64,000 bases of DNA from Nitrospirota bacterium (GTDB lineage: Bacteria > Nitrospirota > UBA9217): the NCBI GenBank assembly GCA_963737155.1, contig CAVTRN010000002.1, positions 1,760,001 through 1,824,000 on the forward strand, in the 5' to 3' direction. Below the pieces are notes generated by a model. That model did no database searches. It was not told the origin of the DNA and saw nothing but the letters and a program-made list of their open reading frames with translations. How positions within the stretch are numbered: the first letter of the stretch is position 1; every line of letters begins with the position of its first letter. This document shows, piece after piece, positions 3,212-13,580 of this stretch. A program made the position numbers and the translations under genes.

Positions 3212-5443
3212 ATGACATCTCATAACTCAATAATTGCGCAGGAACTGTCAATCTCTGAAAAACAGGTTCTTGCCTGTGCAACCCTGCTCGATGAAGGCGG
3301 GACCGTTCCCTTCATCTCCCGCTACCGGAAAGAGGCTACAGGCTCGCTCGACGAAGTGGCGGTCACGGCCATCCGTGGCCGACTGTCCCAGCTCAGGGAG
3401 CTGGACAAACGCAAAGAGGCGATCCTGAACTCGCTGCAGGAGACTGGGAAGCTGACGGAAGAGCTCAAAACCAAGGTGTTTGTCGCCGAGACCATGACCG
3501 CGCTTGAGGACATCTACCTGCCGTATCGGCCCAAGCGCCGAACCAAGGGGACCATTGCCAGAGGGAAAGGCCTTGAACCGCTTGCGCAGATGCTATTCTC
3601 CCAGGTACAGGGGATCGATCTTCCCGCAGATGCAGCCGCATTCGTGGATGCGGAAAAGGGCGTCGAGACCCCGGAAGATGCTTTGGCAGGCGCCCGGGAC
3701 ATCATTGCCGAGTGGATAAACGAAGACCAGAACGCTCGGGCCAAGATGCGCGAACTATATACTTCGAACGGTATGTTCCGGACAAAGGTTATCACCGGCA
3801 GAGAGGAAGAGGGGAGCAAGTACAAGGACTACTTCGACTGGCAGGAACCGGTTGCAAAAGCGCCTTCACACCGCATCCTGGCCATGAGGCGGGGAGAGAA
3901 GGAAGGGTTCCTGATCCTGCGGGTGAATCCGCCCGAGGATGAAGCCTTGACGCTCCTTGAAGCACTGTTCTTGAAGCCCGATAGTCCTGCTGCAGCCCAG
4001 GTGAAGCTGGCTGTCCATGACAGTTACAAGCGCCTGCTCTCCTTGTCAATGGAAACCGAGATGCGTGTCGCGACGAAACTGCGTGCTGATGGAGAGGCGA
4101 TCCGCGTATTCGTCGAGAATCTTCGGCAGCTGCTGCTCTCGCCGCCCCTGGGCCAAAAGAACGTGCTGGCTATTGACCCAGGTTTCCGAACCGGATGCAA
4201 AGTGGTCTGCGTGGACAGGCAGGGAAAACTGATTGTGAACGAAACCATCTATCCGTACTTCTCGGAAAAGAAAATTGGAGAAGCCGGTACGAAGATCATA
4301 GAGCTGTGCCGGAAGTACGACATTGAGGCGATCGCCATCGGAAACGGGACAGCTGGACGGGAGACAGAGGCCTTTGTGCGGCAGTTGGGACTGCCTTCCA
4401 CGATCCAGATCGTAATGGTGAGTGAGAGCGGCGCTTCGGTCTACTCCGCGTCGGATGTCGCTCGTGAGGAATTCCCCGACCACGATATAACGGTTCGCGG
4501 AGCCGTGTGCATCGCCAGGCGTCTGATGGACCCCTTGGCAGAGCTGGTCAAGATCGATCCCAAGGCCATTGGCGTGGGCCAATATCAGCATGACGTGGAC
4601 CAGAACGCTCTCAAGCAGGGTTTGGACGACACGGTAGTGCATTGCGTGAACGCAGTGGGTGTCGAGGTGAATACGTCGAGCAAACAGCTACTTACCTATG
4701 TTTCAGGACTGGGGCCGCAGCTGGCCAGTAACATCGTCTCATACAGGAACGCAAACGGGCCCTTTCACAGCCGGGAGGAATTGAAAAAGGTGCTCAAACT
4801 CGGGCCCAAGACCTTTGAACAGGCAGCGGGATTCCTGCGCATCCATAATGCTGAGAATCCGCTCGATACAAGCGCAGTCCATCCGGAAGCCTATCACGTC
4901 GTCGATAAAATGGCAAGGGATCTGCACTGTTCCATCCTGGACCTGATGCGGAAGGAAGAGTTGCGGAAGAACATCGACCTCAATACATATGTGACCGAAA
5001 CGATAGGTCTGCCCACGCTCAAGGATATCATGGCAGAGCTAGCCAAACCAGGCCGCGACCCTCGGGACAAGTTCGAAGCGTTTAGTTTTACCGAAGGAGT
5101 AAAAAAAATAGAGGACGTGAAGCCGGGGATGAAGCTTCCCGGCGTGGTGACAAACATTACGGCTTTCGGCGCGTTCATCGACATCGGCGTTCACCAGGAC
5201 GGCTTGGCGCACATCAGCCAGCTTTCTGACAAGTACATAAAGGACCCGAACGAGGCCGTGAAGGTCCATCAAAAGGTGATGGTCACGGTTCTGGAAGTGG
5301 ATGTGGCCAGGAAGAGGATATCACTTTCACTCAAGAAGAACCCGGAGAAACCGGTTTTAAAAAAGCAGGAATGGCTTAAGAAAGAAAGGCCGCAATCGGA
5401 TTTAAATGCACTGAAGAGTGCGTTCACTAAAAATAGAACCTGA
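3212..5443 (+). CDS. tex: Tex-family RNA-binding transcriptional accessory protein
   Basis: TVPFISRYRKEATG N-terminus, YqgF-like IDPGFRTGCK, IGVGQYQHD, HhH motifs and a C-terminal S1 domain. Confidence 0.95.
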   Translation: MTSHNSIIAQELSISEKQVLACATLLDEGGTVPFISRYRKEATGSLDEVAVTAIRGRLSQLRELDKRKEAILNSLQETGKLTEELKTKVFVAETMTALEDIYLPYRPKRRTKGTIARGKGLEPLAQMLFSQVQGIDLPADAAAFVDAEKGVETPEDALAGARDIIAEWINEDQNARAKMRELYTSNGMFRTKVITGREEEGSKYKDYFDWQEPVAKAPSHRILAMRRGEKEGFLILRVNPPEDEALTLLEALFLKPDSPAAAQVKLAVHDSYKRLLSLSMETEMRVATKLRADGEAIRVFVENLRQLLLSPPLGQKNVLAIDPGFRTGCKVVCVDRQGKLIVNETIYPYFSEKKIGEAGTKIIELCRKYDIEAIAIGNGTAGRETEAFVRQLGLPSTIQIVMVSESGASVYSASDVAREEFPDHDITVRGAVCIARRLMDPLAELVKIDPKAIGVGQYQHDVDQNALKQGLDDTVVHCVNAVGVEVNTSSKQLLTYVSGLGPQLASNIVSYRNANGPFHSREELKKVLKLGPKTFEQAAGFLRIHNAENPLDTSAVHPEAYHVVDKMARDLHCSILDLMRKEELRKNIDLNTYVTETIGLPTLKDIMAELAKPGRDPRDKFEAFSFTEGVKKIEDVKPGMKLPGVVTNITAFGAFIDIGVHQDGLAHISQLSDKYIKDPNEAVKVHQKVMVTVLEVDVARKRISLSLKKNPEKPVLKKQEWLKKERPQSDLNALKSAFTKNRT

Positions 5444-8834: not shown

Positions 8835-9043
8835 ACCTATTTTCCCCTAATCGTCAAAGCATCAGGGATCAACGGTGACCGATGGCTACTTCTCTGCAAG
8901 CAACGCCCAGGAAAACCACTGGGTGGCCGCGCGCCTGCCATCCAACAGTCCAAGCTCCGCGAGCATAAAAGCACCTGTGCAAATCGCGCCAAACCTAGTC
9001 GCTCCCTTGGCGCAACGGGCGGTCCAGTGGCGCACCGCCAGTT
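8835..9043 (-). pseudogene. Relic of a DJ-1/PfpI-domain (GlxA/FtrA-like AraC regulator) gene
   Basis: Minus-strand translation WTARCAKGATRFGAICTGAFMLAELGLLDGRRAATQWFSWALLAEK*PSVTVDP matches the family pattern SICTGAF..GLLDGRRATTHW. Confidence 0.75.
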
Positions 9044-9777
9044 CCCAGGTCGTCGGAATACCCGGCCTTCAGGCGAGACCACTGGGCGATGGGACGTCCA
9101 TCAGTACGATAATTGTGCTCGCCTTCCGGCCGTTGCGGCCATCCAGTCGGCGAGTCCTCCCACCTCTCCTGCCGCCCGTAGACGGTCAAGTCGAGCAACC
9201 GATAGCTGTTATCCATCGCCTCGACGCCGCGCCCATTCGTCCAGTAAGTCTCATAGACATTGGATCTTTGCCGCAGGTAACAAACGAGGTGAAACATGCC
9301 CACCCGGCGTCCAACCAACAGAGTATCGAGCGAGTCCCGGACCGAGTACCAAGGCATCTCCCAGCCCATGAAGTTGCGGTACAAGACGCTCTCTTCGTAA
9401 GGGCCCTGGCAAAAGGTTGTGTAGGTGACGTCGCGAGAATGAATATAGGACAGCTCGCGGACCTGCGATGTATAGAAGGTGCACCCCTCGCACTGCTCCG
9501 CCGCAGGTTGGCCGGTGTGCCACATGAAGTAGTAGGCAATGAGCATCCGGCGTCCCTCAAACACATCCAACAGTGTTACCGCTCCATGTTCGCCAATGAG
9601 CGGTGTCGCACCATCAACCTCGACCATGGGGAGCCGTCTGCGGACAGCTGCAATGGCATCGCCTTCTCTTGTGTGAGCCTTTTCTCGAACCCGCAATGCG
9701 TCTAGATCCGCTTGAAAGGTTTTCCGATCGACTACCTTAGGGACTCCTGATCTCTGAAGCTTGTCTTGCGAACTCAT
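8995..9777 (-). CDS. DUF899-family thioredoxin-like protein
   Basis: REKAHTREGDAIAA.RRRLPMV, LLDVFEGRRMLI, CEGC, LLDLTVYGRQE motifs; AGGAGGAG SD. Confidence 0.9.
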   Translation of the reverse strand: MSSQDKLQRSGVPKVVDRKTFQADLDALRVREKAHTREGDAIAAVRRRLPMVEVDGATPLIGEHGAVTLLDVFEGRRMLIAYYFMWHTGQPAAEQCEGCTFYTSQVRELSYIHSRDVTYTTFCQGPYEESVLYRNFMGWEMPWYSVRDSLDTLLVGRRVGMFHLVCYLRQRSNVYETYWTNGRGVEAMDNSYRLLDLTVYGRQERWEDSPTGWPQRPEGEHNYRTDGRPIAQWSRLKAGYSDDLGTGGAPLDRPLRQGSD

Positions 9778-10506
9778 GACTGCTCCTCCTCTTTAAGATT
9801 GTGTCGTTCTGCCCCATCGAAGAAGAATTGCAACCTGGCTTATAACTTTACTAATTCTCCACAAGATATTGATTTAGAAAAGGAAAAGGTTGTCGATGCG
9901 ATATACTAAAAGTGAATGCTTTAGATAAGTATGATGAGAGATTGCACAATTGTCAAGTGGACAACGGTGCGACGACATATACCGATAGTTTTAGTTGCGG
10001 ATACAATTTTAAAGTGAATTATGCATTATGGACTTAGATACGACTGATACAGAGTTCAGCTTGTATCCGATGATTGTTTCCATTTTTTGAAATAAAAGGA
10101 TTGATGTGAATTTTGATCATAGAGCGGGTTAAGATGTCCTCAACTGTCAATGTTGGGATATTTCATCTATAACAAAGGTGTACTGAAACTGATAAAGTTC
10201 GGAGTTTTCTCGAGCTTATTCATTGTACTCCACGGTGGAGTATTTTAGGCCGTATAACATAGCAAAAAGAAAAGCAAATCCAAATTACCATGCAAATCGT
10301 AATCAGCCGATCTGAGGCTAAACTTCTCTAGTAAGCTATATTTTTTCTGATAGTTGCAAACATTTCCGAGAATTTACTTTATACAAAACTTAACACCAAC
10401 CATGTACCTGTAAAACCTCTTTATGCGGTCATCAGTTGGCTAGTAAGTTCTTGAAGAACATGGCTCTTTTGCTTCGCTGCATTTAACATCATTGGTTGAA
10501 AATTTG

Positions 10507-10515
10507 TGGTATACT
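10507..10515 (+). promoter_or_regulatory. Extended -10 promoter (TG-G-TATACT); predicted start about 10521-10522
   Basis: TGGTATACT lies 5-6 nt before the 5' arm of the structured RNA. Confidence 0.6.
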
Positions 10516-10520
10516 TATAT

Positions 10521-10815
10521 CGGCGTTGCGAAACTGACGAAGCATTAACCGTATTTTTAACATTAGTTGAGGGTCTGAGGTATCAATCCGGCGTGATCCG
10601 AAATCGACAAACAGCAGTACATGCTCGCTGTGAACTGTCGGTTATCAGGTCAACGAGGTATGGATATCGGAAATCCCCTGAGGCCGAAGGAGAATTTGGC
10701 GAAGGAAACGAACCGCTTCAGCAGTAGCGAGAGCGAATCACGGAAGCGATCGTGGATCTTGCTAAATATCCCGAGGTTCAACGGAATGATTAAGATACGG
10801 GTCAGAGCAACGCCG
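10521..10815 (+). ncRNA. Candidate large structured non-coding RNA (about 295 nt), family not recognised
   Basis: Ends pair perfectly (CGGCGTTGC/GCAACGCCG); five further nested basal helices, multiple internal hairpins with G-U pairs, an AGUA/GAA loop-E motif capped by a GAGA tetraloop; flanked by promoter and terminator; no credible ORF. Confidence 0.75.
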
Positions 10816-10840
10816 TAATATTATATTGTTAAAAACAAAT

Positions 10841-10873
10841 GCCGGCAGGGTTGTTCTCCCTGCTGGTTTTTTT
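10841..10873 (+). terminator. Intrinsic terminator
   Basis: GCCGGCAGGG-loop-CCCTGCTGGT followed by a T run. Confidence 0.85.
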
Positions 10874-11330
10874 CGTACTCTTGTCAGAGAGAACCTTTCT
10901 TGGCCGAAATGAAAGATTCTCTGTCATACTTTGAAGCTATGCCACAGGTACCGCAGATAATATTTCTCCCGCCTTACGAGTATGATAACTCTTGAGCGGG
11001 AATCACCAAAGATACCATATGCAGTCTTCTTTAATCTAAATTTGGGAAGTGATATAAAACTGATAGAATTTGTCTTTTTCGCATGACCGACTTATACTCC
11101 TTTTTAACACGTTTTATGTCTCGATCACCGGGCAGCAACTATGATCAATCGGTCAGATAATATTTGTATTTTGTTACTGTTCACCCCAATATGTTTGACC
11201 TTCTTGTTCAAGAACTTAAAGGTCCGCCGCGTCGAATAATTGACGTTGGAACTTCCTAGCATCAAATGCATTTCTAGTGGTTCTATGTGGTGGATTTTAG
11301 GAATACTGATCAGAAATATGGGAGGCTGCC

Positions 11331-11696
11331 ATGAGACAAAAAAGCGCACTTGCAGTTATTACGACAACAGTTCTGCTGGCAGTTTCGCTATTCACATATT
11401 TGACGGGATGTGGGAGGGGTGGTGGCGATGACTCCGGTTTAAAAGCAACCCCCACGTATGCCGTTATTTATGATGGTAATGGCAATACCGGCGGCAGCGT
11501 TCCAATTGACTCAAACATTTACAACCAGGGGCAGACTGTCACGGTGTTAGGGAATACAGGCAACCTTGTAAATACCGGCTATTCCTTCGTGGGCTGGAAC
11601 ACGCAAGCTAACGGATTAGGAACGACTTATACGCAGGGTCAAACCTTAACGATATATACCACAAATATCACCCTGTATGCTATGTGGACCATATAA
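11331..11696 (+). CDS. Lipoprotein with one InlB B-repeat (Listeria-Bacteroides repeat); truncated multi-repeat gene
   Basis: GGAGG SD, signal peptide with LTGC lipobox, YDGNG..GYSFVGWNTQANG.GT.Y..TLYAMW repeat consensus. Confidence 0.8.
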   Translation: MRQKSALAVITTTVLLAVSLFTYLTGCGRGGGDDSGLKATPTYAVIYDGNGNTGGSVPIDSNIYNQGQTVTVLGNTGNLVNTGYSFVGWNTQANGLGTTYTQGQTLTIYTTNITLYAMWTI

Positions 11697-11702
11697 TACC
11701 AC

Positions 11703-11814
11703 TATGCTGTAACCTAATACCAGCAACAGCAGTACCAGCGTCAGCATCCCGCTTGACTTAACCAACGATGAAGAGGGGCAGATCGACACCGTGCAAGGCA
11801 ACACAGACGACCTC
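11703..11814 (+). pseudogene. Decayed second B-repeat of the upstream lipoprotein
   Basis: YAVT then, after a +1 shift, NTSNSSTSVSIPLDLTNDEEGQIDTVQGNTDDL aligns without gaps to YDGNGNTGGSVPIDSNIYNQGQTVTVLGNTGNL. Confidence 0.75.
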
Positions 11815-12266
11815 TGTGCTGCTCGTTAAAGCTTCCTCGAAATGCAGGCTAACCAGGCAGAACGAGGGCTTCGAAAAGCTTTACGAATAATACTATGAGC
11901 AAGGATAGGTGTTCGCTATCTTCCTCACTGACGATTTTACTGGTCAGGAGCCAGGTGCGATTCTCCGCATATGGAAAAATACACAGAGCTAGATTAATAT
12001 CTTCGCCTATGTACTCGTTGTCATTGTAAGAAAACGGTTTAAGGTCAATCGCAGTCTCCATGCAATTTTACAAATTCTCAGCGTAAAATAATTTTGAGAA
12101 AACAGAGATTTAAAGACGAGGGACAATCCATTAACTATCCGTAGTATTTTTGTCTTGACAAAGAGGAGCATCTTACGGCTTAATAATCTCAAGCATTTTT
12201 CTCTATGTGTTTATAAAACAGAGCCATCTGACAGGACAGAAACTTTTAATTTCGAGGGGAAACGCC

Positions 12267-13295
12267 ATGAAGCTCAAAGATCTTGCCGGCAAACTCAATG
12301 CCGAGTTGGAGGGTCCGGGAGAAATCGAGATAATCGGTGTGGCCGGCATAAACGACGCGTGTGTAGGGCTTATCACTTTCATTGACGGGGAAAATAATAT
12401 CAAGCAACTGGAACAGTCGGGTGCATCGGCTGCATTCGCGCCTCCAGATATTCCGAAACTGCGGCTGCCGCTGCTTCGAGTGAAAAATCCGCGGCTTGCT
12501 TTTGCGCAGGCAATCGAATTGTTTCATGTAAAGCCCTCCCAACCGATCGGCATAAGCGACAAGGCAATCATTGGGCAGAACTCGGTTATCGGTGTCGAAC
12601 CTTCTATTCATCCTTTTGCCGTTATTGGTGATAATGTAACGATTGGAGATAGGGTGACCCTCTATCCCGGCGTGTACATTGGCAAAGGATCGGTCGTCGA
12701 TAATGACTGCGTTGTCTACCCCAATGTGTACATCGGGCACGATGTACAGGTAGGCAAACGCGTAACCATCCACGCAGGAGCGGCAATCGGCAGCGACGGG
12801 TTCGGGTACGCGACGGAAGGCGGAATACATCACAAGATTCCGCAGGTGGGCAGAGTAATCATCGGTGACGATGTGGAGATTGGCGCCAACACTGCCATCG
12901 ATCGCGCAACCCTTGGCACGACTGTTATTAAACAAGGAACGAAAATCGACAACCTCGTTCAAATCGCACATAATGTGACCATCGGAGAGCACTGCCTTCT
13001 GATCGCTCAAGTGGGAATTTCCGGGAGCTGCACGCTTGGTGATTTTGTCGTTCTGGCAGGTCAGGTCGGCCTTGCAGACCATGTCAGTATAGGTGACCGC
13101 ACGATGGTATCAGCCCAGAGCGGCATCGTGAAAGACATCGAGCCAGGACAGATGATCGGCGGGTATTACTCCATGCCGCAAAAAGATTGGCTCAAGGTTC
13201 AGGCAATTCTTCCGAAATTGCCTGAACTTAGAAAGCATATCGCACATCTTGAAAAACAGGTACAGGAATTGAAGCAAAAAATATCGGGCGGGTAA
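12267..13295 (+). CDS. lpxD: UDP-3-O-(3-hydroxyacyl)glucosamine N-acyltransferase
   Basis: Hexapeptide repeats, [33 protein letters not shown]; GAGGGG SD before MKLKDL. Confidence 0.95.
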
Positions 13296-13441
13296 CAAAA
13301 TTATTTAGAAAATCCCACCGAGACAAGCAGGAAACGGGGAAGTTGCACGTAAAGTTAAAGTGAAAATGAGGTTTAACAAGTCAAATAGAGATGGCGATGC
13401 CGTACAAAAATATATTTAGACTTATCAACATTTATAAAACA

Positions 13442-13580
13442 GTCCTGAAATACCCAGCAGCTTGCTGCTGGGATGAAAAGGACATCCTGGCGAAGCCAGG
13501 ATAAGTCTTCAGCTTCTTTGTTGTGCTTTTTTAAGGTTTCAAGTTCCGATGCCCCGCAGCTTGCTGCGGGGTAATTCACT
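13442..13580 (-). mobile_element. Non-autonomous IS200/IS605-type palindromic element (PATE/REP-like), about 140 bp
   Basis: Two related hairpins CCCAGCAGC-TT-GCTGCTGGG (13453-13472) and CCCCGCAGC-TT-GCTGCGGGG (13552-13571) plus an internal ATCCTGGC-GAA-GCCAGGAT hairpin; minus strand begins GTGAATTACCCCGCAGCAAGCTGCGGGG. Confidence 0.7.

What the first reader, a model, noticed from the sequence alone, without database searches (positions are those of the whole stretch)
10507..10873. Unassigned, independently transcribed, about 295-nt highly structured RNA
Seen: extended -10 TGGTATACT, then an RNA whose ends form a long interrupted helix: CGGCGTTGC 10521-29/10807-15, CTGAC 10534-38/10801-05, CCGTAT 10549-54/10795-800, TTAA, CATT 10561-64/10785-88 and GTTGA 10566-70/10778-82. 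This encloses a branched core: AATCGACA 10602-09/10636-43 with ACAGC/GCTGT, GGAT/ATCC, ATTTGGCGA 10694-702/10759-67, CGCTTC 10714-19/10743-48, and AGTA-GC-GAGA-GC-GAA (10723-37). CTGAGG occurs twice, and a strong terminator follows 25 nt later. G-U pairs and the GNRA loop favour the + strand. Known: loop-E plus GNRA modules mark large tertiary-folded RNAs such as group II introns and orphan classes like GOLLD. It lacks the hallmarks I know for tmRNA, RNase P, SRP, 6S and common riboswitches, and the next gene is about 450 nt past the terminator. Inference: a trans-acting RNA or ribozyme-like RNA of possibly undescribed class; my best candidate for a new system in this window.
Basis: partly seen in the sequence, partly recalled or inferred. 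Interest (0 to 1): 0.88.

Follow-up and report, generated by a model that had tools for sequence, protein, structure and literature searches.

The report
New structured RNA family in Nitrospirota
This is a real, separately transcribed, about 295-base folded RNA gene that belongs to a previously uncatalogued RNA family carried by every examined genome of one uncultivated group of Nitrospirota bacteria, and its job is still unknown.

Summary
Window 10521-10815 (+) folds as described: z -4.46 against -2.51 for the other strand. It has an extended -10 promoter (10505-10515) and an intrinsic terminator (10841-10873). Rfam 15 gives no hit, and the genome has 6S, RNase P, tmRNA and SRP RNAs elsewhere.

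A covariance model from 14 close relatives found full-length copies in 52 of 64 genomes of the lineage; its family, order and class scopes return the same 64 genomes. Among 79 copies, 73 of 81 modelled pairs show compensatory double changes. The 8 P1 pairs (GGCGUUGC/GCAACGCC) show none.

The window copy is a dispersed paralogue ("type A"). The ancestral form ("type B", about 317 nt) was found in 27 of 27 sampled family genomes. It lies divergently beside a TrpE/PabB-like gene in 38 of 40 loci and ends with P1 followed directly by a U-run. The own genome's type B copy is at C2:3020094-3020417.

No convincing match was found in 123 other genomes of the phylum or in 80 viral pattern hits. Metatranscriptome contigs from four studies hold close relatives at very high word depth.

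Conclusion: a new, probably abundant, trans-acting structured RNA family. Its function is inferred, not shown. The claimed loop-E module is not conserved.

The parts
10505..10515 (+). Extended -10 promoter TGTGGTATACT. The -10 hexamer is TATACT at 10510-15. The predicted start is at about 10521-10523, the first bases of P1.
   Evidence: Read. It is conserved as TGTGGTATAnT in the aligned close relatives. A TGnTAyAnT box ends 6-9 nt before P1 in 11 of 14 type A copies. The start site is inferred, not mapped.
10521..10815 (+). The structured RNA itself, a type A paralogue of the family. It is bounded by helix P1.
   Evidence: Model R1 matches 10518-10819 at 286.4 bits, E 2e-80. The fold has z -4.46. 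There is no Rfam hit and no conserved ORF.
10521..10529 (+). P1 5' strand, CGGCGUUGC. It pairs with 10807-10815.
   Evidence: Read. Among 79 copies the 8 modelled P1 pairs are invariant or vary on one side only, and none shows a double change.
10807..10815 (+). P1 3' strand, GCAACGCCG.
   Evidence: In one groundwater RNA run, adapter sequence follows position 10814 in one contig and 10800 in another. This is a weak hint of a 3' end near P1.
10534..10570 (+). 5' strands of the interrupted closing helix: P2 10534-38, P3 10549-54, P4 10561-70. Most relatives carry an extra GNRA hairpin (CACU-GAGA-AGUG) between P2 and P3. This copy lacks it.
   Evidence: All pairs in helices 2-5 show double changes. 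The hairpin covaries: CACG/CGUG in G054 and GACC-GAAA-GGUC in G047.
10571..10677 (+). Domain A, a nested arm. Its helices are 10571-73/10675-77, 10593-98/10648-53, 10601-08/10637-44 and the hairpin 10613-20/10625-31.
   Evidence: The R1 consensus structure was mapped to window coordinates. Helices 6-15 are 63.5-97.4% paired, and every pair shows double changes.
10683..10777 (+). Domain B, a nested arm. Its helices are 10683-85/10775-77, 10689-91/10769-71, 10694-99/10762-67, 10708-11/10750-53 and 10714-19/10743-48, with the terminal hairpin GC-GAGA-GC at 10727-34.
   Evidence: helices 16-26. The 10714-19/10743-48 helix corresponds to GCUUC/GAAGC in type B. There it is 99.5% paired, with 3 of 5 pairs compensatory, on a sequence-only alignment.
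10778..10805 (+). 3' strands of P4 (10778-88), P3 (10795-800) and P2 (10801-05). This includes the family-conserved UCAACGGAAU.
   Evidence: the consensus shows 'ucaacGgaa'.
10841..10873 (+). Intrinsic terminator: GCCGGCAGGG-loop-CCCTGCTGG followed by T7.
   Evidence: Terminator scan. The aligned close relatives keep the hairpin and the T-run, except G010b and G015. DNA similarity to relatives ends at about 10873-10906, just past the terminator.

Best explanation
SHOWN: window 10521-10815 (+) is a genuine non-coding, structured RNA gene with its own extended -10 promoter and hairpin terminator. It belongs to an RNA family that is absent from Rfam 15. The family is found throughout one uncultivated class-level lineage of phylum Nitrospirota and was not convincingly found outside it.

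The family has an ancestral, syntenic form ('type B', about 317 nt). It is transcribed divergently from a TrpE/PabB-like gene. Its promoter lies about 55 nt upstream of P1, its leader carries a conserved UCUUU box, and P1 is followed directly by a U-run. The family also has duplicated, diverged copies ('type A'), of which the window copy is one. Type A copies start at P1 and have a separate terminator.

The architecture is a long interrupted closing helix (P1-P4) that encloses two branched arms. Every modelled pair outside P1 covaries. P1 keeps its sequence.

INFERRED: the RNA acts in trans as an abundant, stable RNA. Most likely it is the scaffold or decoy of a ribonucleoprotein, working like 6S, Ms1, Y or raiA-type RNAs. 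In this reading the sequence-invariant P1 (GGCGUUGC/GCAACGCC) is the site read by a protein or processing enzyme. In type B, P1 would also serve as the stem of the terminator. Paralogues such as the window copy would supply additional or differently regulated versions. No partner, ligand or activity has been identified.
For: Fold: z -4.46 on the + strand against -2.51 on the - strand.

No known family: 0 Rfam hits. The own genome has 6S, RNase P, tmRNA and SRP RNAs elsewhere.

Gene unit: among close relatives, DNA similarity spans only promoter, RNA and terminator, roughly 10464-10906 at its widest.

Distribution:
- R1 hits 52 of 64 genomes and 19 of 19 genera, all full length.
- R2 hits 27 of 27 sampled family genomes. 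Of 123 other genomes of the phylum, 3 gave weak partial hits, E 1e-3 to 6e-3.
- The pattern scan of 185,579 species genomes returned 111 stretches, of which 80 were listed. All 30 listed Nitrospirota loci match R2 at 141.8-305.2 bits. None of the 50 other loci gave more than a P1-only or weak match, at most 22.7 bits.

Structure:
- Over 79 copies, 87.9% of cells are paired, against 35.6-45.3% with slid partners. 73 of 81 pairs show double changes. There are 701 double-change cells, against 53-118 with slid partners (this alignment was fitted to the model).
- On a sequence-only MAFFT alignment of 40 type B copies, 96.3% are paired against 34.0-44.7% slid, and 20 of 52 pairs are compensatory.
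- P1: 0 of 8 pairs show a double change.

Transcription signals: type B has an extended -10 in 39 of 40, a TCTTT leader box in 39 of 40, and at least 5 T directly after P1 in 38 of 40. Type A has a -10 ending 6-9 nt before P1 in 11 of 14.

Expression: RNA-library contigs from 4 runs in 4 studies (peat, two soils, groundwater) hold relatives of 10661-10819. Summed word depth reaches about 9,200 and 11,500 in the two soil runs.

Not cis-acting: the genes downstream differ. A methyltransferase follows in 14 of 40 type B loci and GlgC in 5 of 40. Type A flanks are unrelated.

Not coding: no frame is conserved.
Against: No function, partner or activity is shown; the trans-acting RNP reading rests on analogy.

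The expression evidence comes from assembled contigs of relatives, not from this strain. The flanks laid as a silent control are not conserved in those relatives, so they are not a valid control. Contigs cannot show the strand or the true ends.

The large covariation count comes from an alignment fitted to the model's structure, and related sequences inflate shuffle tests.

The window copy scores second lowest of the 14 close copies (286.4 bits). It breaks a few consensus pairs (UU at alignment columns 98/204 and 105/197, AC at 143/154), so it could be a decaying paralogue.

R1 found nothing in 12 of 64 genomes. R2 was run on only 27 of the 63 other family genomes.

The only conserved neighbour, a TrpE/PabB-like gene, gives no obvious link to an RNP role.
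Confidence: 0.6

Rival explanations
1. It is a ribozyme: a self-cleaving RNA, or a trans-acting catalytic RNA with a housekeeping role specific to this lineage.
For: Its size, branched fold, lineage-wide presence and several conserved unpaired stretches (for example GGAAAGC-GAAAGCCCC and UCAACGGAAU in the consensus) fit a tertiary-folded RNA. The type B leader implies a processing step.
Against: No known ribozyme model matches, including in the permissive E-value mode. No cleavage-site signature was identified. Only about 20 positions are at least 90% conserved outside P1 across the 79 copies, which is low for a catalytic core. Several diverged paralogues in one genome are unusual for an essential ribozyme.
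Confidence: 0.1
2. It is a cis-regulatory leader, such as a very large riboswitch or attenuator, in which P1 plus the U-run is the regulated terminator for the gene downstream.
For: In type B, P1 is followed directly by at least 5 T in 38 of 40 loci, so P1 formation could decide termination. A gene on the same strand often follows; a methyltransferase does so in 14 of 40 loci.
Against: The genes downstream differ among type B loci and are unrelated among type A loci. In the window, the next gene starts 458 nt after a strong separate terminator. At about 300 nt it exceeds known aptamers. High depth in RNA libraries points to a stable product.
Confidence: 0.06
3. It is a divergent member of a known RNA class that the Rfam models miss, for example a second 6S-like or Ms1-like RNA polymerase-binding RNA.
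For: It has a long interrupted closing helix made from the two ends, appears highly abundant, has an independent promoter, and its precursor carries a 5' leader. E. coli 6S shares this last feature (recalled, not tested here).
Against: The genome has a canonical 6S at C2:1131951-1132132, scoring 97.6 bits. The fold has two branched arms rather than a rod with a central bubble. No Rfam family reaches E 10 on this stretch.
Confidence: 0.08
4. It is a selfish or mobile repeat (MITE-like) whose terminal inverted repeat is what looks like P1.
For: P1 is a perfect 9-bp terminal inverted repeat with an invariant sequence. Some genomes have 2-5 copies, some of them clustered. The flanks of type A copies differ.
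Against: Copy number is low: 2 in the own genome. Type B sits at the same locus in 38 of 40 cases across genera. The conserved unit extends beyond the repeat to a promoter and a terminator. Internal helices covary, which a DNA repeat has no reason to do. No transposase-like neighbour was seen. I did not search for target-site duplications.
Confidence: 0.03
5. It encodes a small protein. The window has ORFs at 10506-10727 (73 aa) and 10621-10818 (65 aa).
For: Both ORFs exist. A stop-free frame of 80 aa or more overlaps the RNA in 5 relatives.
Against: No frame stays open across the 14 close copies. Their lengths are not congruent modulo 3, and one copy has no stop-free frame longer than 31 codons. 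In type B the longest ATG-started ORF ranges from 4 to 91 aa. Substitutions follow base pairing.
Confidence: 0.02

Closest known systems
raiA motif RNA (Rfam RF03072; Firmicutes and Actinobacteria)
   Same: It is an orphan, independently transcribed, complex-folded bacterial RNA of a few hundred nucleotides. It is very abundant in cells and widely conserved in a lineage, with unknown function. For raiA, the abundance and unknown function come from the abstract of PMC12968392 as shown in the search listing.
   Different: There is no sequence or structure match: Rfam gave no hit even at E up to 10. The phylum differs and this RNA is longer. It has a sequence-invariant terminal helix and several diverged paralogues per genome.
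6S RNA (RF00013) and Ms1 RNA
   Same: The two ends pair into a long interrupted closing helix. It is an independent gene, probably abundant, and the type B precursor has a 5' leader. Some bacteria have two 6S paralogues (recalled).
   Different: The own genome has a canonical 6S elsewhere. This RNA has two branched arms rather than a rod with a central bubble. The 6S model does not score it. RNA polymerase binding is untested.
Large orphan ornate RNAs: OLE, GOLLD, ROOL, HEARO
   Same: It is a lineage-restricted, highly structured RNA found by comparative analysis, with no assigned biochemical function.
   Different: It is smaller, at about 300 nt against roughly 400-800 nt (recalled). None of their Rfam models matches. 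It has no phage or mobile-element context: 0 of 80 viral pattern hits match the model. It is chromosomal and syntenic.
CsrB/RsmZ-type protein-sponge RNAs
   Same: It is a trans-acting RNA with several paralogues per genome. The type A consensus holds 8 GGA triplets (read).
   Different: Sponge RNAs keep repeated short motifs in loops, not a covarying global fold. Here the fold is what is conserved. I did not test GGA enrichment statistically.

Membership tests
Any Rfam 15 family (4,227 models) | Score at or above the family's gathering threshold. | tested here: not met
   There were 0 matches over the whole window. Over 10300-11000 at E up to 10, the only match was a chance mir-302 hit at 10949-11000 on the minus strand, outside the RNA. 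There were 0 matches on 8 loci with divergent copies.
6S RNA (RF00013) | Match to the 6S covariance model; a rod with a central bubble; one housekeeping copy. | tested here: not met
   The 6S model hits G000:C2:1131951-1132132 at 97.6 bits and nothing in the window. The consensus fold has two branched arms.
RNase P RNA, tmRNA, SRP RNA | Match to RF00010, RF00023 or RF00169, and no other copy in the genome. | tested here: not met
   All three are found elsewhere in the genome above their cut-offs, at 265.2, 199.9 and 74.6 bits. None is found in the window.
Riboswitch or cis-regulatory leader | Constant position upstream of a functionally coherent set of genes on the same strand. | tested here: not met
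   The genes downstream vary. In type B loci a methyltransferase follows in 14 of 40, GlgC in 5 of 40, and others in the rest. Type A flanks are unrelated. In the window, 458 nt and a terminator come before the next gene.
MITE or other mobile repeat | Many copies, target-site duplications, variable insertion sites, no selection on an internal fold. | tested here: not met
   The own genome has 2 copies. 38 of 40 type B copies sit at one syntenic locus. Internal helices covary. Target-site duplications were not searched for.
Structured non-coding RNA gene (generic) | Own promoter and terminator, conserved fold supported by compensatory changes, no conserved ORF, evidence of a transcript. | tested here: met
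   The promoter and terminator are conserved. Covariation is shown. No ORF is conserved. RNA-library contigs hold close relatives, though not this strain.
Protein-binding scaffold or decoy RNA (6S-, Y- or Ms1-like mode of action) | A defined protein partner that binds the RNA. | not testable with these tools
   No partner gene is linked. This is inferred only from the sequence invariance of P1 and from apparent abundance.

The most novel reading that the evidence does not exclude
This is a previously undescribed class of large structured RNA that acts as a housekeeping component of an entire uncultivated class-level lineage of Nitrospirota. It would be highly expressed, vertically inherited at a fixed locus, and duplicated into specialised paralogues. 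Its biochemistry would be its own: for example, a new ribonucleoprotein built on the invariant P1 helix, a new ribozyme, or an RNA-only higher-order assembly of the kind recently seen for ROOL, GOLLD and OLE.
Probability: 0.55. Interest if true: 0.75.

Novelty: new variant of a known kind. Interest (0 to 1): 0.66.

Why it matters
Complex-folded bacterial RNAs of around 300 nt or more whose function is unknown are few. OLE, GOLLD, ROOL, HEARO and raiA are the usual examples, and several later turned out to have unexpected biochemistry or architecture.

This family adds a well-defined case:
- 79 copies in one model-based alignment, falling into 42 clusters at 70% identity, plus further copies found later with model R2.
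- A fold in which every modelled pair outside P1 covaries.
- A terminal helix whose sequence never changes.
- A fixed ancestral locus, visible gene duplication, and signs of very high expression in soil, peat and groundwater metatranscriptomes.

The alignment is deep enough for R-scape analysis, chemical probing, cryo-EM and pull-down work with in vitro transcripts, without needing to culture the organism.

It also matters for annotation. Every genome of this lineage has at least one unannotated RNA gene, which could otherwise be read as a spurious small ORF.

Tried and rejected
1. BLAST-level homologue search. It found copies in only 10 of 41 and 19 of 64 genomes (own genome included) and suggested a patchy element. 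The covariance models overturned this.

2. RNAalifold on a MAFFT alignment that mixed close and distant copies (A3). It collapsed to 19 pairs because the distant rows were misaligned, so I did not use it.

3. The 'order' and 'class' scopes of the genome search. They returned the same 64 genomes as 'family' and added nothing except to show that the lineage is one family deep at class rank in this collection.

4. Conserved protein neighbours of type A copies. None was found. The early apparent 'shared ORFs' were antisense or chance frames.

5. Pfam on the clustered locus of G015. It holds ordinary metabolic genes and nothing mobile or defence-like.

6. My own all-against-all column covariation scan for extra helices or pseudoknots. 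It was too noisy to use. I examined a possible pairing of the type B hairpin loop AAGUUGA with CUCAAC of P4 by eye. It showed one compensatory case, six wobble-compatible cases and about three mismatches. It remains undecided and I make no claim.

7. The pattern scan of species genomes. The 50 listed non-Nitrospirota stretches, many from Clostridia, gave no real model match and no Rfam hit at the matched places in the 18 loci checked. In a 12-locus sample, 7 lie in reading frames that are open across the whole match. They are chance matches, some within conserved genes, and not relatives.

0 of the 80 listed loci matched R2. The unlisted ones were not examined.

9. Run shares under 0.2 are not used as evidence of habitat. 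The parts of 10300-11100 without cover are not evidence of silence, because the flanks are not conserved in the relatives present in those runs.

10. Literature. Five full-text searches found no description of such an RNA in Nitrospirota. I saw only search listings and abstract starts and read no paper.

Full report
**Observation.** The stretch reads as the first stage described. TGTGGTATACT lies at 10505-10515. A 9-bp helix joins 10521-29 to 10807-15. It is followed inward by 10534-38/10801-05, 10549-54/10795-800, 10561-64/10785-88 and 10566-70/10778-82, and the listed internal helices are all present. A 10-pair hairpin with T7 lies at 10841-10873, and the next plausible gene starts at 11331. 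On the + strand the minimum free energy is -123.6 kcal/mol, z -4.46, and 0 of 100 dinucleotide shuffles fold as well. The - strand gives z -2.51.

**Not a catalogued RNA.** Rfam 15 gives no match at gathering thresholds over the 64-kb window. At E up to 10 over 10300-11000, the only match is a chance miRNA hit outside the RNA. The genome encodes 6S, RNase P, tmRNA and SRP RNAs elsewhere, each above its cut-off. The candidate is therefore not a displaced copy of one of these.

**Homologues and gene unit.** BLAST found copies at 72-83% identity in relatives. Similarity to the window runs at most from about 10464 to 10906, which is promoter, RNA and terminator. The flanks are unrelated. The close copies share TGTGGTATAnT just before P1 and a hairpin terminator about 25 nt after it. 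No reading frame is conserved. Lengths are not congruent modulo 3, and one copy has no stop-free frame above 31 codons.

**Family-wide search.** A covariance model (R1: 308 positions, 81 pairs) was built from 14 close copies. It found full-length matches in 52 of 64 genomes and 19 of 19 genera of the family, often in several copies. G015 has 5, four of them on one contig; G019 and G078 have 4 each. The order and class scopes return the same 64 genomes, so this is a class-level lineage with a single family in the collection. The 79 copies fall into 42 clusters at 70% identity.

**Covariation.** On the model-based alignment of the 79 copies, 87.9% of cells are paired, against 35.6-45.3% when the partners are slid by 1-3 columns. 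73 of 81 pairs have a change on both sides. There are 701 double-change cells, against 53-118 slid. That alignment is fitted to the structure and the sequences are related, so these figures are generous.

An independent check uses a sequence-only MAFFT alignment of 40 type B copies with the RNAalifold consensus. There, 96.3% are paired against 34.0-44.7% slid, and 20 of 52 pairs are compensatory. G-U and U-G pairs are frequent, which fits the + strand.

The 8 modelled P1 pairs behave differently. Three never vary, the others change on one side only, and none shows a double change. Every one of the other 73 pairs does. P1 is therefore constrained in sequence, not only in pairing.

**Two forms.**
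- *Locus of the weaker hits.* Most of the weaker R1 hits lie about 100-150 nt from the start of a divergently transcribed TrpE/PabB-family gene. This holds in 38 of 40 loci. The protein scores below the equivalog cut-offs of NCBIfam. I call these copies type B.
- *Distribution of type B.* A model built from them (R2) matched 27 of 27 sampled family genomes at 141.8-301.1 bits. Of 123 genomes from the other 21 families of the phylum, 3 gave weak partial hits, E 1e-3 to 6e-3.
- *Own genome.* It has a type B copy at C2:3020094-3020417, beside its TrpE/PabB-like gene. R1 alone had missed it, even at E up to 10.
- *Type B signals.* An extended -10 box lies 43-94 nt upstream of P1 in 39 of 40. A TCTTT box lies in the intervening leader in 39 of 40. 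At least five T follow P1 directly in 38 of 40.
- *Type A signals.* Type A copies, such as the window's, have the -10 box ending 6-9 nt before P1 in 11 of 14. None has a U-run directly after P1; they use a separate hairpin instead.
- *Origin of type A.* Close relatives of the window copy (R1 at 140 bits or more) occur in 14 of 64 genomes. In G015, two type-B-like copies and one type-A-like copy stand in tandem next to the TrpE/PabB-like gene. G041 and G016 also have neighbouring copies. This suggests that type A arose by local duplication and later dispersal.

**Wider distribution.** I scanned 185,579 species genomes for P1 with a 275-305 nt spacer and a U-run. This gave 111 stretches, of which 80 were listed. 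The 30 from records titled Nitrospirota, Nitrospirae, Nitrospiria or Nitrospiraceae all match R2 at 141.8-305.2 bits. The 50 others give at most a P1-only or weak match of up to 22.7 bits, and in a 12-locus sample 7 lie in fully open reading frames.

The same pattern in metagenome contigs gave 29 full-length type B copies among the 80 listed loci. A looser pattern in viral contigs gave 0 model matches among the 80 listed loci. Apart from the TrpE/PabB-like gene, the neighbours of the RNA vary and look like ordinary metabolic genes.

**Expression.** No run holds this exact strain as RNA. The best holder is a DNA run with 0.43 of the sampled words. I laid contigs from four RNA libraries in four studies (peat, two soils, groundwater) at 80% likeness. 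They cover 10661-10819, the most conserved part.
- Summed word depth reaches about 9,200 and 11,500 in the soil runs and about 1,700 in the groundwater run.
- The loose ends continue as family-like sequence.
- Two groundwater contigs run into adapter sequence after 10800 and 10814.
- Depths of this size in soil RNA libraries are hard to explain by contaminating DNA.
- These are assembled contigs of relatives, so strand, true ends and expression of the window copy itself remain unshown.

**What it most likely is.** Shown: this is a non-coding, independently transcribed, structured RNA gene. It is one paralogue of a family that is universal in the genomes examined of one Nitrospirota lineage and absent from Rfam.

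Inferred, at roughly even odds: it works in trans as an abundant stable RNA, probably within a ribonucleoprotein. The invariant P1 would be the recognition or processing site. In type B, P1 would also be the terminator stem.

Rivals are a ribozyme (about 0.1), a missed known class such as a 6S-like RNA (about 0.08), a cis-regulatory leader (about 0.06), a mobile repeat (about 0.03) and a small-protein gene (about 0.02). The evidence for and against each is given in its own section.

The AGUA/GAA 'loop E' around the GAGA loop is a peculiarity of this copy. Relatives have a regular AUUUGC/GCGAAU helix there. The first CTGAGG is not conserved. Most relatives carry an extra GNRA hairpin between P2 and P3 that this copy lacks. 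The window copy is not the principal member of the family.

**Prior description.** Five full-text searches found nothing that describes such an RNA. I saw only listings and abstract starts, and supplements were closed.

Noticed in passing
L114 2860-2995 (G000:C2, about 3019960-3020094) and the matching stretch of other type B loci: A conserved box, GGGTCAAGACAAWTCT, lies about 45 nt upstream of the RNA's -10 box in many type B loci. On the other strand it reads TTGTCTTGACCC. It could be a -35 element or an operator for the divergent TrpE/PabB-like gene.
   Followed up: no
L075 (G015:C90) 4681-5001, 11690-12000, 12085-12401, 12566-12887, all on the minus strand: Four family copies lie on one contig, three of them in tandem about 85-165 nt apart next to the TrpE/PabB-like gene at 13018. 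They score differently with the type A and type B models. This looks like a snapshot of duplication and divergence.
   Followed up: partly
L025 (G051:C4) 1403-1590: A 5'-truncated copy of the RNA. Only the 3' part, about 120-190 nt, is homologous, and it is nearly identical to the second copy in G050. It may be a remnant.
   Followed up: no
window 9778-10500 and 10874-11330: Two AT-rich stretches of about 720 and 460 nt flank the RNA gene. They hold no ORF above about 50 aa and show no similarity to the related loci. Promoter-like sites at 11042-11098 precede the lipoprotein gene at 11331.
   Followed up: no
window 11331-11696 (+) and 8995-9777 (-): The neighbours of the window copy are a small lipoprotein with a Listeria-Bacteroides repeat (TIGR02543, E 1.7e-4) and a DUF899 protein (PF05988, E 1.3e-49). 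Neither recurs next to other copies.
   Followed up: partly
L126, L129, L182 (Ruminococcaceae and related MAG contigs), at the pattern matches: Three homologous intergenic stretches of about 310 nt from gut Clostridia happen to share the same 9-bp terminal inverted repeat and U-run. In the two I folded (L126, L129) they form several strong hairpins. They do not match R2 or, in the two checked against Rfam (L126, L129), any Rfam family at that place. They are unrelated to the finding and may be a repeat element.
   Followed up: partly
L005 1852-1994 against window 13431-13580: In G001 the RNA gene is followed directly by sequence similar to window 13431-13580. So about 2.5 kb of the window (10873-13431, including the lipoprotein gene and lpxD) is placed differently relative to the RNA in that relative.
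   Followed up: no
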